Positions 1-64,000 of a DNA stretch of 64,000 nucleotides are shown one piece after another. The notes below the pieces were generated by a model. It made no database searches. It was not told the origin of the DNA and worked only from the letters and a program-made list of their open reading frames with translations. How positions within the stretch are numbered: the first letter of the stretch is position 1; every line of letters begins with the position of its first letter. Position numbers and translations under genes: made by a program. The DNA is taken from positions 2,927,476-2,991,475 of the forward strand of contig JBJCIZ010000239.1 of assembly GCA_051294375.1 (NCBI GenBank), read 5' to 3'. Origin of the DNA: Paraspadella gotoi (lineage: Eukaryota > Animalia > Chaetognatha).

Positions 1-1099
1 TTTAAGTATAATCTTAAGGCATCTCTTTTCATGCCTTATTTCCAGTGACAGGTGCTGATCGAGTTTGCCCAACTCTTTCTGTCCCGTCCTTAGATCCTTC
101 TTCATTCTGGCAAGGAGATCTTTCATTCGCTTACGTTCTTCGCGCGGAGCTCGAGTACTGGGATTAAAACAAAAATATTTCATTTATAATTATTTTAATC
201 AAAACCCACAAAAACGTCAGAAAAGAGTACCCGTCTATCTGATCAAAGAGGTCCTGAATGGCTTTATTGGCTTCTCCTTTGTTGATATTGTTGTTCAGTT
301 CCCTGACGCTGCCTTTGGCTTTGTAGGCGCGGAATCCCAAATCGCGCACGGAGACAAGAAATTGACGAGTTCCGTCGTTGGCTACCTCGTTACCATAGAG
401 ACCGGTTCCGATAAACAAAACGCAGACGAATATAAAAGCTGAAAAATAAAAAAAAGTTGCCCTTGGATTTTGTCGTTTTATTCTACACGAATTAAACATT
501 AATTTATAAACATACTAATGAGCCAGAAGTTACGGCAACATTTCCCATTTCCTTTAGGGCCTTCGTCCTCCGTCTTTTTTCCATTTCTGTAAAGAAAAAA
601 TATTTCTTTTATTTTTAATTTTATCTATTCAACAATCATGATTATCTCCAAACCTGGCTCTGCAGCAAGCTTGGCAGCATCGGATGCAAAAGTAGACGAG
701 TAAAATAAAGAGGGTCAAAAGAAGCCATAAGAAAGGAACGGCAATGAGAAAGAGAACAGATTCGCGATACTCGTTGCTCTCTGTGACAAAAATAAATAAA
801 AACGAGATTTAGTCACAAGTTAGGGCGAAATTTCAGTCAAAAGGAAAACATACCAGGTTTGAATGTATCGTTGGCGGCAGAAAAATCCCGCTTGAAATGC
901 GGAAAGGCGTGCAAAAACCTGACAAGCCAGTTGGGTGAAGGAATAGAAGTCGGGGGTCCTTCGGTTTGATACGAAAACCTTCAAAAAAAAGTTTACAGTA
1001 ATATAAAGGAATATCCTTCATAATCTGATATAAGCTATTAATTTATCATTACCCGACAGAGTAGTCGTATCTATCCCAGGAGCGAAAGTCGATACTCAT
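1..1099 (-). CDS. tty: Tweety family (TTYH) membrane protein, 5' part; runs off the window start
   Basis: Spliced GT-AG exons give MSIDFRSW...PSPNWLVRFLHAFPHF..NDTFKPESNEYRESVLFLIAVPFLWLLLTLLFLLVYFCIRCC and FIGTGLYGNEVANDG, matching the tweety N-terminus, TM1 and the TM2 GxYGN..NDG motif. Confidence 0.85.
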
Positions 1100-1386
1100 C
1101 TTAATTGTTAACGTGTGAGATCAAGCAGTGAAAACTTCTTTTTTTTTCAATTTGGATGAGACGATCAGAGAAATGTGGGTTTTTTTTTGCAAAAAAAAAT
1201 AGGAGGTAGATGAAATAAGAACATGTCACATGATCCCTCCTTGAGTAAAGTTGGTGATATGCCTCGGTTTTAACACGATCCAGATCATGTAGAAAGTTCG
1301 TAAGAATTAAACGTTAACATATCAAAGCTAAAATAAAAATGGGTCGACAGAAAAATGAACAATAAGCAAAACGGGAGATGCCAATC

Positions 1387-4300
1387 TTAATCTGGCAAAA
1401 TGGCTAAGTTTACGAGGTGTCTCATGGTGGGGCGGCCGTGAGGGCAATTCCAAGGATGATCGAGCGTCGCCATGTGATCGACGATTTGACGCATTTCCGA
1501 TCGATTGAGCGCCGTGCCGATCATAACGGATTTGCGGCACGCACGGGACGCGAACATCTTTCGCACTCGCGACGGTCGACATAGCGTTCCTGTGAATTTA
1601 ATGAATAATAAATAAATAAATATTTGAAACAAACATTTTCATCTTCATTTACCCGGCGTGAGTTCGGATAGCATGAACAACATCTCCTCCACGTCGCTGT
1701 GACCAAAGTTCCAGTCTTTGCTTATGGGTACGGAGCTAAGTTTAACCCTCTCTCCTCCAGGAGCCTTCGGATCAAAATCAAACTTAAACCCGTTTTTGGC
1801 AAAGACCTCCAGATTCTCCTCCAGCACGATCTCGTTTGCTGGACTGAGATCCAGTCGTTGAGGGATGATGAGTTTCTGACTACGGATGATTGTGTCTCGT
1901 TGCAGAGTCTCGAAGTTGTACTTTTCGTCGGTGGCGTGTTGGTCTATGATGAAGAGATCCTCGTCGAGTTTGACGACGATGAATCCCAAATTGAACTGAC
2001 CCAAAATGGTCATTCGCGCGAACTTATCCTTGGATATCTCTCGTCTCAGTTCCTCCTCCGCCTCTTCGTTCTTCGAGGGATCGATCTTAGCGCGAAAAGC
2101 CGAGTGACGAATTTCCTCGTCGGCTGATTTGATTTGAATTCCTCGAATTTTTCGTTCGATTGAATTCAAGTCGAAGTTGAGAGAAGCGACGCTTCTTCGA
2201 TGATCTTTTTCCATCGGACGATCTATCTCGTAGTCGTCGCTCCTCGATCGATCGCCGGGCGCCGTGTCCTTAGTCTTGACGAAATCGCGCCGCCCGAATA
2301 ACGACGAATCTTGATCTCTTTTGGACGGAGGCGTGAAAAAAAGTTCGAGCGCCTCGTCTTCAAAGTTTTTCTTCTCTCCATCCTCTTGGTTCGTCCGACG
2401 GATTTTCACAGGCCAATTGACTTCCTCATCCTCATCCTCGACTTTTCGCGCTCTTTTTCTTTCCTCCACGCCACGCCTCAGTCTCGCCAATGGACTTTCG
2501 ACTAGAGTAGGAGTTGTTGAGTTGGTCGTGTCCTTTCTGGAAAACGAAGCTCTTTCGCCGTCTCCGTCGTCATTATGGCTAGCGGAAGAAGAAGAAGAAG
2601 AAGGAGAGGCTCGTGAAAAAGCGAACCGTCGGAGGGAGGATTGTGGCGTGCTAGTTTTTCCCACCGAAATCCCTTTCACTTCTTCTCTCTTTTCTTTTTT
2701 GTAGTCTGGGAAAATTATGGTCCCGTCCAGCGGGAGGCCCAGTTTGGCCGAGCAGTGGATAAGGCTGTTCGTGTTGTAGAGGTTGACTTGGGTCTCGAAC
2801 AGTTTGATCAACGACGTCTTCAAAGTCGCCAAAAACAACTTTTCTTTCTCCATGAACATTTGGCGTTTGTTCGGCGTGACGTTGATATCTATGGTGTCCC
2901 GCTTCGCCCTCACTCTGGATTTATATAGGTGACAAGTTATAGGGAAAATTCTGTAGCAGAATAATTTGTGGTTCATTTCAAATGAGATTGAGTTCTTCAA
3001 TTCCATTTACTTATTGTAGCAGTTTAAATCATTTCTCATATCTTTTGATGCAATTTTCACAGTAGTCTTATTTTACGGTTTTCGCAATACTTTTAATAGG
3101 TTTTAATAATGATTTAGTTTTCCATTAATTATTTCGAATCATTCATTGTGATGATTGTATGCTTTACAAATGGAAGTATTTTTCTTGTTCTGGGAGACTG
3201 GCTCATGTTTGATAAAAGATTGTTATTGTCAAAGGCCTAGCTATTAGTCACTGTTACTGTTTATGATTATGTCAAAACTGTTTTTGGTATTAATAAAAAA
3301 AAAAAAAAAAAAAAAAGGAGGAAAAATAGGATTTCAGGGTCGGTCTGAACCACTATGCCCTTTTCTTAGCTTACCACTTATAATATAATAATAATATGTA
3401 TCTCGTGTAATATTAATAATGTTAAGTTAAATTAAATTAAGTTAAATTATTCTGCTACAATTCTTTTTTCCCTCACTCTCTGTTCAACTTGGTCGCAAGA
3501 TGACCATTGACCAACCTCAAAGCAATAAAAGGCGTTTGATGTCTATTGTACTGACGGTAAACATCGTTGACGAGTCGAAAGACTTTGGAAGAGTCGCAAG
3601 GGCGACCGTTGATGAAGAAGAATTGCCTGTCCGCGCTCGATCGGCCCTTTCCGTGTTCTGGAAAAGAATAAATTCGGTTGAAAGGGAAAAAAAAATTGGA
3701 TCGATCGGAGCCAAAACGGAAAAAACGGAGTCGTTGATCCGACCGGCGGAGGAGACGAATCCGTCGAGTTCAAAGTCAATGTCGTCTTCTTTTAAATCTT
3801 CTTTTAAATCTTTTAAACCGAAATCTGAGGCGACGTCGTCCGTCGGAGCATGTTGGCTCAACTCATTCAAGGATTGAAGCTGAATGAAAAGAAGGCAAAA
3901 ATGAAAATTGGAGAACAAATTTAAGAAAAACAAACTGCCTTGTCCATACTCAATTACTCATTGCATTAAAAATTCCCGATGAAAACCTGTTTAAATCCGA
4001 AGATGTTCAAAATATTTTCCTTCAGGCTCTGGTTCCCATTGGTCGAGAAGACAAGTTGTTTCGCATCTTTGCCCGATTTCTCGGAAATATTGAAGAGGCA
4101 AACTCGGACCCCGGTAAGAACCAAAGCGTAACCCTAAGGGGAGCAAACGTGGCATATTTTTAAATTTCAGTAAAACAATAGATTAACAAAACTCTTGAAT
4201 GCTACCTGAAGAATGCCAATCATTTTGGCATATTCCTTTTTGATGTTCTTCAAAAATTCCCGATGCCGAACGGGAAGAGAATGGAAAAGATCGGTCACCG

Positions 4301-5012
4301 TCACCGTCGTTCCCACCTTTTTAATGGCAAAGTATTTTCTAAATTTAATTCAATATTTTATTTAACTATACGGGAAATAACCATCTGACTTACATACTTG
4401 GCGAGGGCTTATTTCAGTTTTCGCAAGGTCCCCCAGAGAGTTAAATTCCAGTCTTGATCCAACCGAGTCGTTTTTATGTCTGGAGTAATATTAGCATTGT
4501 AATCACGTATCGCGCGATGAATTTTGATATTTTGCTACTAAACCTCGTATGAACCGAAAGATTGCCGAGCGAGCAGAGCGAACTGAGAGCTTCGCCGCGA
4601 AACCCAAACGTCTCCATGTTGCTGAGATCGGAAAAGGCCCTGAGTTTGGAGGTGTGGTGCTTGAGGCCGAGTCCCGCGAAGTTAGAAGGTTCGACTCCGG
4701 AACCGTTGTCCACGACTTCGATCATTTGAGCGCCGAAGCCGCGAACTCTGATCTCCACCGAAGTCGCACCCGCGTCCACGCTGTTTTCCAACAGCTCCTT
4801 CAAGGCGGTTCCGAGCGTGAGTATTACCTGAGGTGAGGTAAGGTAAAAGAAGTCTTATATATCCGCATCGCTTCTACTCAATCCGCAGCCATTACCTGCC
4901 CCGAACATATTTTATGAATGGACGTTTTATCGATCGCGGTGATGACGGTTTTATCATCAGAGGTCGACGAAGTTTCATCTTCGTGATCGGAATTGTCCAC
5001 CGGTTCTTCCAT
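1387..5012 (-). CDS. PMS2: Mismatch repair endonuclease PMS2 (MutL family), about 9 exons
   Basis: [32 protein letters not shown] (GHKL ATPase), [12 protein letters not shown] endonuclease motif, ACR and CPHGRP; exon junctions are phase-consistent. Confidence 0.96.
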
Positions 5013-63251: not shown

Positions 63252-63253
63252 AT

Positions 63254-63275
63254 CTGTAGTAAAAATGGCACTGAC
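63254..63275 (-). promoter_or_regulatory. Splice acceptor 2 nt upstream of the RMND1 ATG (candidate trans-splice site)
   Basis: Minus strand reads tgccatttttactacAG|AT-ATG, about 215 nt after the FEN1 stop. Confidence 0.6.
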
Positions 63276-63468
63276 AAGGATTACGAGTTGAAACATTGAG
63301 TGCTTAACAATGGTAGAAATCTTTATCATGGATTGAAACGTAACAATTATGAGTGATCGTGAGTTTTCCGAAAGTTCAATAAAAAAAATCAACAATAACA
63401 AAAATAATCAAATGAGATTTGTAATGAACAACTTTGTTTGTTCCAGTATAAAGAATTAAATTTTTTTT

Positions 63469-64000
63469 TTACTTGGGCCTTTTGAATGCTGCTTTTCCGG
63501 TAGATTTCGACGCGCCCTTTGCGGTCTTTGCTTTCTTGTTGTTGTTGCCTTTTAATCCATCTTCCGATTTACGTTTGTTGGCGGCGCTTGGACTTTGAAC
63601 TGTCTAAATTAATAAACGAAGCGGTATATTATTTAATCCTCAGACGAGTTAGTGTGGCAGACGCAAAAGTAAAAAAGTCGGGACATGAAAAATACCTTGA
63701 AAAATGAATCCATCCTCATTTGCGTTTGACCTCCTCTCGCTTTTGCCAATCGTTTGGAACTGGAGCGGATTCGATCTTCGCTGAAATTCTTTTCTTTGCA
63801 CATGAATTCCACTAAAGCCTCTTCGTCAGGCTCCGTCCACTGGTCACAGAAAAAATCAGGTTCACCAGTCACCGTGAATACTCCGCCCCCCCCCCAAAGT
63901 TTCACTTTCAAAAAAAACCTTTAAATCCAGCGAGGCGGCGTCGACGACGTCGGGTTCCTTGAAGAGTCGCCTCGCCTCCACGAAGAGCCAGTCTTCGGGC
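63469..64000 (-). CDS. FEN1: Flap endonuclease 1, 3' part
   Basis: [17 protein letters not shown]...[29 protein letters not shown] box QMRMDSFF, basic tail. Confidence 0.95.

What the first reader, a model, noticed from the sequence alone, without database searches (positions are those of the whole stretch)
1..64000. 19 of 20 genes co-oriented and tightly packed: candidate giant animal operon resolved by SL trans-splicing
Seen: 19 unrelated genes, plus the snoRNA candidate, lie on the minus strand, including an unbroken run of 15 genes over about 47 kb (FEN1 to PARN). Under random orientation, 19 or more of 20 on one strand has probability 42/2^20, about 4e-5. Twelve of 18 stop-to-ATG gaps are 156-377 nt, for example POLR2G-PRMT1 156, CCDC97-HEATR5 166, SYCP2-ACTR10 170, FEN1-RMND1 217 and MRPL41-COQ5 220. 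That leaves little room for a 3' UTR, promoter and 5' UTR. Established: nematodes, tunicates, flatworms and chaetognaths have SL-resolved operons, mostly of a few genes and rich in housekeeping/germline genes; trypanosomes have chromosome-scale polycistrons. Inference: these are one or a few unusually long polycistronic units in an intron-rich animal genome.
Basis: partly seen in the sequence, partly recalled or inferred. Interest (0 to 1): 0.9.

Follow-up and report, generated by a model that had tools for sequence, protein, structure and literature searches.

The report
Head-to-tail animal gene train, likely operons
In this compact animal genome 19 of 20 genes point the same way and spliced RNA runs across most gaps examined, so they are likely copied as several shared transcripts cut up by leader splicing, as already known in arrow worms (the likely source); one giant 15-gene transcript is possible but unproven.

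Summary
Nineteen genes lie on the minus strand, 15 in a row over 47 kb; 12 of 18 stop-to-ATG gaps are 156-365 nt. The one plus-strand gene is real (TSPO-like).

RNA contigs of run X1 are spliced and run unbroken through several gaps from SLC25 to CUL5. One contig starts exactly on the first base after an unpaired acceptor, 66 nt behind the RMND1 3' end: a typical operon junction. No leader letters were seen.

Trees place the animal among spiralians outside annelids, molluscs, brachiopods and nemerteans. An arrow worm is most likely (inferred); that group is known to have SL-resolved operons.

A published 500-nt spacing rule splits the run into five clusters of 2-5 genes. A GC-rich patch with two CRE-like motifs upstream of MRPL41 may be an internal promoter.

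Verdict: SL-type operons likely (about 0.8 overall), one 15-gene unit about 0.2. The longest operons in the papers read have 8-9 genes. The scan noted smaller clusters of this kind on other DNA (e1-7145845).

The parts
63469..64000 (-). FEN1, 3' part (runs off the window)
   Evidence: PDB match; stop read
57805..63251 (-). RMND1, 354 aa, 4.3-kb second intron; acceptor-like AG 2 nt before the ATG
57730..57795 (-). 66-nt, 56% T spacer between the end of RNA record 3 (57796) and the start of RNA record 2 (57729); ends in an unpaired 10-bit acceptor. Candidate poly(A)-site / trans-splice junction
55272..57470 (-). SLC25A24-like Ca-binding mitochondrial carrier, 472 aa
52749..53545 (-). POLR2G (Rpb7), 172 aa
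50945..52592 (-). PRMT1, 371 aa; acceptor-like sites 66 and 78 nt before the ATG, no donor above 2.4 bits in the gap
44503..49886 (-). ZRANB1/TRABID, about 1030 aa; spliced 5' UTR; one GC-AG intron
43050..43300 (.). GC-rich patch (53%) with two perfect CRE-like palindromes (43182, 43275) and a CCAAT box; candidate internal promoter (motif names recalled)
41776..42523 (-). MRPL41, 177 aa; intron 42012-42225 holds a strong hairpin
39632..41555 (-). COQ5, 568 aa with a long acidic insertion; acceptor 18-20 nt before the ATG, gap not cis-spliced in RNA record 1
36459..39269 (-). CUL5, 792 aa
33961..35028 (-). nanos, about 260 aa
31409..32959 (-). C2H2 zinc-finger gene, 408 aa; 10.3-bit acceptor 67 nt before the ATG
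29024..31062 (-). GPKOW, 496 aa; 9.7-bit acceptor 5 nt before the ATG
24112..28692 (-). SYCP2-like gene (start uncertain; spans an N-run)
   Evidence: SYCP2_SLD E 7e-14
22138..23941 (-). ACTR10
16835..21825 (-). PARN; an intron holds a 1.8-kb broken insertion and an N-run
15275..16440 (+). lineage-restricted TSPO-like gene; the only strand switch, head-to-head with CCDC97
13878..14959 (-). CCDC97, 326 aa (start uncertain)
5378..13711 (-). HEATR5; 9.5-bit acceptor 74 nt before the ATG
1387..5012 (-). PMS2
1..1099 (-). Tweety homologue, 5' part (runs off the window)

Best explanation
These head-to-tail genes are likely a train of several spliced-leader operons of about 2-5 genes each, in an animal that is likely an arrow worm. 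In each unit RNA polymerase II would read through from one promoter. The upstream mRNA would be cut and polyadenylated, and a leader would be trans-spliced onto the unpaired T-rich acceptor a short way downstream, giving the next gene a capped 5' end. The 1-2 kb gaps are mostly transcribed (long UTRs or read-through), and some, such as the one before MRPL41, likely also hold promoters. Shown: co-orientation, spacing, expression, cis-splicing, RNA cover of the gaps, and one RNA 5' end at an unpaired acceptor. Inferred: the leader, the shared promoters, the unit boundaries and the phylum.
For: (1): spliced record 1 (13,238 nt, depth 154) has unbroken, mismatch-free pieces across MRPL41-COQ5, ZRANB1-MRPL41 (1,979 nt) and most of PRMT1-ZRANB1; record 2 (4,571 nt) crosses SLC25-POLR2G (1,726 nt). 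Record lengths imply that POLR2G-PRMT1, COQ5-CUL5, CUL5-nanos and FEN1-RMND1 are crossed too (pieces not displayed). (2) Unspliced background is about 4x in the one long unique intron; at 4x, bridging all four long gaps had P<1e-6 in simulation. (3) Record 2 ends at 57729, the first base after TTTAG. Record length and bin depth (145.51 expected, 145.5 seen; 145.7 if one base longer) agree. Record 3 ends 66 nt upstream, leaving no room for a promoter between them. (4) A fork at +1 rather than -1 implies a competing 5' partner not ending in G; every chaetognath leader in Table 3 of PMC2481426 ends in AAA. (5) Acceptor-like sites within 130 nt of the ATG: 12 of 18 score 4 bits or more, mean 5.9 against 4.5 in shuffles, p 0.018. 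All 18 gaps are T>A on the sense strand. (6) CUL5, HEATR5 and joined trees put the animal beside Lophotrochozoa. CpG o/e is 1.1-1.5 in genes and gaps but 0.2-0.8 in five insertion-like introns, like the transposon-only methylation reported for P. gotoi.
Against: No leader letters were seen: none of the 6 X1 loose ends displayed lies at a gene start (111 rows over three runs not displayed), and no branch record adds depth at 57729. Contigs cannot prove single transcripts, and the tool says so. At 8x background the long gaps would be bridged with P 0.1-0.4, and the 4x figure rests on one intron. Acceptor scores are not significantly above control windows in the long gaps (p 0.075). The other six gene starts within records 1-2 show no contig break. 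No named chaetognath, gastrotrich, gnathiferan or flatworm sequence was in the trees. X1 is one run of one study. None of the 79 metagenome loci held a neighbour of CUL5, so conservation of gene order is untested.
Confidence: 0.6

Rival explanations
1. The 15 genes from FEN1 to PARN (47 kb or more) form one polycistronic unit with a single promoter upstream of FEN1; the long gaps are just long 3' UTRs.
For: RNA cover is continuous from FEN1 to about 10 nt before the nanos acceptor, except for the 66-nt spacer (partly inferred from record lengths). Records 1 and 2 overlap by about 25 nt inside PRMT1. No strand switch over 15 genes.
Against: GC-rich patch with two CRE-like palindromes and loss of T>A skew 570-760 nt before MRPL41. 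Five gaps of 1.0-2.0 kb. ZRANB1 has cis-spliced 5' UTR exons. nanos is usually tightly regulated (recalled). Largest operons in the papers read: 8-9 genes. No RNA was laid on nanos-PARN.
Confidence: 0.2
2. A compact cluster of separately promoted genes without trans-splicing; promoters sit in the upstream gene's 3' UTR or last intron, and overlapping UTRs plus background join the contigs.
For: No leader seen. Contig joining is not proof of one transcript. Acceptor enrichment over long-gap controls is weak (p 0.075). A compact annelid genome is described as keeping conventional traits (PMC7854359; start of abstract only).
Against: Does not explain 19 of 20 on one strand, nor an RNA start on the exact base after a 10-bit acceptor (one such site in a 334-nt gap), nor the 66-nt spacer.
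Confidence: 0.15
3. Read-through transcripts stay polycistronic or are joined by cis-splicing across gene borders, with no leader.
For: A weak donor (3.9 bits) at 57794 could pair with the 57730 acceptor to give a 65-nt intron of typical size.
Against: Such a junction would keep the contig unbroken, like every other short intron, or fork at 57794 and 57730; the observed ends are 57796 and 57729. The displayed pieces cross four gaps without cis-splicing (PRMT1-ZRANB1 only as far as 50209).
Confidence: 0.05

Closest known systems
Chaetognath SL-resolved operons (Paraspadella gotoi, PMC12460157; Spadella cephaloptera, PMC2481426)
   Same: Co-oriented housekeeping and germline genes, very short spacing, no operon-specific leader. 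About half of genes are trans-spliced and 18% are in operons. Methylation is on transposons only, which fits the CpG pattern here. Leaders end in AAA, which fits the +1 fork.
   Different: The longest published operon has 9 genes under a <250-bp rule; here the same-strand run has 15 genes. The leader itself and the phylum are not directly shown here.
Macrostomum lignano operons (PMC8629364)
   Same: Spiralian; conserved and stem-cell genes; RNA-seq transcription units span operons; repeats inflate the distances; 1-kb rule.
   Different: 93% have 2-3 genes, maximum 9. Flatworm leaders end in G (recalled), which would move the contig fork to 57730.
C. elegans SL2 operons and tunicate single-SL operons (Ciona, Oikopleura; PMC7986045, PMC11067885)
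   Same: Short spacer between poly(A) site and acceptor (median about 100 nt in C. elegans, about 30 in Oikopleura; 66 nt here).
   Different: Different lineages. C. elegans has 2-8 genes per operon; Oikopleura has a reported nine-gene operon. SL2 specialisation could not be tested here.
Trypanosomatid polycistronic transcription units
   Same: Long same-strand runs of unrelated genes resolved by a leader.
   Different: There all protein-coding genes are transcribed polycistronically (PMC7986045) and are nearly intron-free (recalled). Here genes are intron-rich (56 introns in 13 models, median about 80 nt) and the run is broken by a plus-strand gene.

Membership tests
SL-resolved eukaryotic operon | Adjacent genes on one strand with short spacing | tested here: met
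   19 of 20 on minus; 12 of 18 gaps 156-365 nt; one measured RNA-end-to-RNA-start distance of 66 nt
SL-resolved eukaryotic operon | Unpaired 3' splice acceptor at the 5' end of downstream genes | tested here: inconclusive
   Met at SLC25 (RNA starts at +1). Overall 12 of 18 score 4 bits or more; p 0.018 against shuffles but p 0.075 against long-gap windows
SL-resolved eukaryotic operon | Shared non-genomic leader on mature mRNAs | tested here: inconclusive
   Only assembled contigs were available; no leader among the 6 X1 loose ends displayed, 111 rows not displayed. Fork position fits a non-G-ending partner
SL-resolved eukaryotic operon | One promoter and a read-through precursor | tested here: inconclusive
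   Continuous spliced contigs across gaps, above the measured background; contigs cannot show single molecules; candidate internal promoter
SL-resolved eukaryotic operon | SL RNA gene (leader, donor site, Sm site) in the genome | not testable with these tools
   No whole genome held. None found in the window by Rfam or with chaetognath leader pieces
Chaetognath operons | Host is a chaetognath | tested here: inconclusive
   Spiralian outside annelids, molluscs, brachiopods and nemerteans (SH-like 0.94-0.99). Closest relatives are unnamed JGI, Logan and ENA proteins. No named chaetognath sequence available
Chaetognath operons | Gene bodies unmethylated, transposons methylated | tested here: inconclusive
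   Indirect: CpG o/e 1.33 in CDS, 1.2-1.5 in gaps, 0.2-0.8 in five insertion-like introns; no methylation data
Trypanosomatid-type polycistronic unit | Genome-wide organisation into chromosome-scale one-strand units | not testable with these tools
   One 64-kb window; the run is broken after 15 genes by a real plus-strand gene

The most novel reading that the evidence does not exclude
FEN1 to PARN is a single polycistronic unit of at least 15 intron-rich genes and 47 kb, including nanos and SYCP2. That is well beyond the 8-9 gene maximum in the nematode, tunicate, flatworm and arrow-worm papers read, and would suggest that parts of this animal's genome are transcribed in long, trypanosome-like blocks.
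Probability: 0.2. Interest if true: 0.7.

Novelty: new member of a known kind. Interest (0 to 1): 0.45.

Why it matters
If the units are ordinary 2-5 gene operons, this is one more example of a known system, though with an unusually long same-strand train and one cleanly located junction. If the 15 genes are one unit, it would be the longest animal operon in the literature I could search. It would show that distance rules on gene models undercount operon length when 3' UTRs are long, and it would let one ask how a regulated germline gene such as nanos is controlled inside a housekeeping transcript. If the animal is not an arrow worm (about 1 in 3), it might add a lineage to the list of animals with operons.

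Tried and rejected
No whole genome was held, so genome-wide strand runs and an SL RNA gene search were impossible.

No run on record as RNA was listed; X1 proved to be spliced RNA only by laying it. X2 and X3 gave only scattered short matches. RNA could be laid on 39500-58300 only; the rest of the window has no RNA test.

The scan of metagenome contigs with a CUL5 relative gave 79 loci, none from the window's own clade by identity (best full-length 79-80%) and none with another window gene nearby. A scan of viral contigs with the SLC25 exon found no relative.

Rfam found no snoRNA, SL RNA or other family at its gathering score. Chaetognath leader pieces gave only chance-level matches in the window.

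Xenoturbella was considered because of similar GC content and short introns (PMC11521371, passages) and set aside because the trees place the animal on the lophotrochozoan side; no Xenoturbella sequence was in the tree.

The ESM Atlas gave only weak bacterial look-alikes for the plus-strand exon, overruled. The IQ-TREE run timed out, so supports are FastTree SH-like values. Pfam found nothing in the PARN-intron insertion.

The P. gotoi operon table (xlsx supplement) was too large to read; it could show whether these gene pairs are annotated operons there.
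Full report
1. What is in the window. It is 64 kb of an animal genome (43% GC, 222 N) with 20 genes whose ATG-to-stop spans cover 83% of it. Pfam, PDB and exon models identify, on the minus strand and in transcription order: FEN1, RMND1, SLC25A24-like, POLR2G, PRMT1, ZRANB1, MRPL41, COQ5, CUL5, nanos, a C2H2 gene, GPKOW, SYCP2-like, ACTR10, PARN, then CCDC97, HEATR5, PMS2 and Tweety. 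Gene names beyond the Pfam family are my own assignments. I built full spliced models for 13 genes (56 introns, most 62-135 nt); for the others only the ends were fixed. On the plus strand 0 of 122 ORFs of 75 aa or more reach a Pfam cut-off (ORFs containing N or overlapping one short stretch were not submitted). One plus gene is real: 15275-16440 has four representatives at 59-76% identity and a family of 16 unnamed proteins, one of which passes the TspO/MBR cut-off. The snoRNA candidate was not confirmed.

2. RNA. Run X1 holds 0.48 of the sampled words of 20000-29000. Laid on 39500-58300 it proved to be spliced RNA of this organism: 15 joints were displayed (25 not), 14 GT-AG and one GC-AG, all on the minus strand. 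Record 1 (13,238 nt) shows mismatch-free pieces 40945-42011, 42226-44703 and 50209-51078, which cross the MRPL41-COQ5 and ZRANB1-MRPL41 gaps and most of the PRMT1-ZRANB1 gap. Record 2 (4,571 nt) shows 53430-56050, crossing the SLC25-POLR2G gap. From record lengths, record 2 reaches into PRMT1 and overlaps record 1 by about 25 nt. Record 1 ends near 35071, 1,388 nt past the CUL5 stop and about 10 nt before the nanos acceptor, or at 34991 if a UTR intron is spliced. Record 3 has 1,213 nt left for FEN1 after RMND1 and the gap. These extensions are inferred; the pieces were not displayed.

Contigs do not prove single molecules. Background matters: the 626-nt SLC25 intron has about 4x cover against 137x for exons. 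At 4x a simple simulation almost never bridges all four long gaps (P<1e-6); at 8x it does so with P 0.1-0.4. So the long gaps are likely transcribed, as UTRs or read-through, and little untranscribed space is left for promoters.

3. One junction is resolved to the base. Record 3 ends at 57796, 9 nt after the RMND1 stop. Record 2 begins at 57729, the first base after a T-rich tract ending in TTTAG, the best acceptor in that gap (10.2 bits). Two separate sums fix this end: record length and the depth of the last bin (145.51 expected, 145.5 seen, 145.7 if one base longer). The 66-nt spacer is 56% T. This is the anatomy of an operon junction: 3' end, short U-rich spacer, unpaired acceptor. In a k-mer graph a contig starts where incoming paths first differ; a start at +1 rather than at the G of the AG implies a partner that does not end in G (inference). 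All chaetognath leaders listed in PMC2481426 end in AAA (section 12); most other animal leaders end in G (recalled). Against this: no leader letters and no branch record were seen. Assemblers can prune such branches (recalled), which would also explain why contigs run through the other gene starts, but I could not check that.

4. Sequence signals elsewhere. A matrix trained on the window's cis-introns finds an acceptor of 4 bits or more within 130 nt of 12 of 18 ATGs (mean 5.9 against 4.5 in dinucleotide shuffles, p 0.018). The opposite strand gives 3 of 18, but long-gap control windows give 23 of 40 (p 0.075, run with an earlier Tweety start), so the enrichment is modest. All 18 gaps are T>A on the sense strand. 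The ZRANB1-MRPL41 gap holds a 53% GC patch with two of the window's four CRE-like palindromes and a CCAAT box, where the skew vanishes; this may be an internal promoter.

5. Which animal. CUL5 is 93-94% identical to three unnamed JGI proteins and 72-82% to named animals; the large HEATR5 exon is 43-49% identical to the 120 best hits listed. FastTree puts the window between Lophotrochozoa and ecdysozoans plus deuterostomes, with 0.99 on both splits in the joined tree of 22 rows and 2,242 columns. That means a spiralian outside annelids, molluscs, brachiopods and nemerteans. Gnathiferans, gastrotrichs and flatworms were not in the trees, and the window's branch is the longest, so the placement is tentative. 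CpG is not depleted in genes but is in insertion-like introns, as expected from the transposon-only methylation reported for P. gotoi (PMC12460157, passages). With the leader-end argument I put chaetognath at about 0.65.

6. Comparison with what is known. P. gotoi: nearly half of genes trans-spliced, 18% in operons, longest nine genes, rule <250 bp. M. lignano: maximum nine, rule 1 kb; C. elegans two to eight (PMC8629364, passages). O. dioica: rule 500 bp, a reported nine-gene operon (PMC11067885, passages and section 8). Spacer sizes: PMC7986045 (passages). Applying 500 nt to stop-to-ATG gaps gives five clusters: FEN1-RMND1-SLC25, POLR2G-PRMT1, MRPL41-COQ5-CUL5, ZnF-GPKOW-SYCP2-ACTR10-PARN and CCDC97-HEATR5-PMS2-Tweety; the first and last run off the window. 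ZRANB1 and nanos stand alone. Stop-to-ATG overstates the true distance, so the units may be larger. Searches for longer animal operons or long co-oriented runs listed no paper describing one; the library lacks most subscription journals. The P. gotoi gene table could not be read and the three readable supplements held no operon list.

7. Verdict. It works like an SL-resolved operon cluster (about 0.8 summed over the first two explanations). Membership is not fully shown because the leader was not seen. Several adjacent operons are more likely (0.6) than one 15-gene unit (0.2). Novelty: new member of a known kind. Interest 0.45; 0.7 if the single unit is confirmed. Earlier notes of this scan describe smaller candidate clusters without RNA; none exist for this genome.

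Noticed in passing
window 42127-42222 (minus), in the MRPL41 intron: Near-perfect hairpin, pre-miRNA-like; the whole intron folds at -77 kcal/mol, z -9.2. Only sub-threshold Rfam miRNA matches. X1 depth in this bin is well above what the exons give, but G/C runs may draw in unrelated records.
   Followed up: partly
window 15275-16440 (plus): Divergent TSPO-like membrane protein with a basic, Ser-rich tail; all 16 proteins of the family found are unnamed. It sits head-to-head with CCDC97, with acceptor-like sites on both strands about 125 nt apart (15073 minus, 15198 plus), suggesting a two-way promoter.
   Followed up: partly
window 40150-41230 (minus): COQ5 is 568 aa with a long acidic, low-complexity insertion inside the methyltransferase domain; three RNA joints show that the extra exons are in the mature transcript.
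   Followed up: partly
window 19340-21185: Broken 1.8-kb insertion in a PARN intron, 52% GC, CpG o/e 0.82; by eye it resembles a tyrosine-recombinase retroelement (recalled), but Pfam finds nothing.
   Followed up: partly
window 44985-45669 and about 62000-62400: A GC-AG intron of ZRANB1 holds a high-copy repeat (X1 depth about 2,000). By eye an inverted copy with the same GAT run lies in the long RMND1 intron; not aligned.
   Followed up: no
window 11445-11487 (plus), HEATR5 intron: Weak twister-ribozyme match (25.8 bits, cut-off 37.6, E 0.3) in an intron with very low CpG (o/e 0.23); probably chance or an old insertion.
   Followed up: no
gaps between genes, minus strand: A canonical AATAAA lies within 400 nt of the stop in only 5 of 18 gaps, so 3' ends may use another signal or be coupled to splicing of the next gene.
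   Followed up: no
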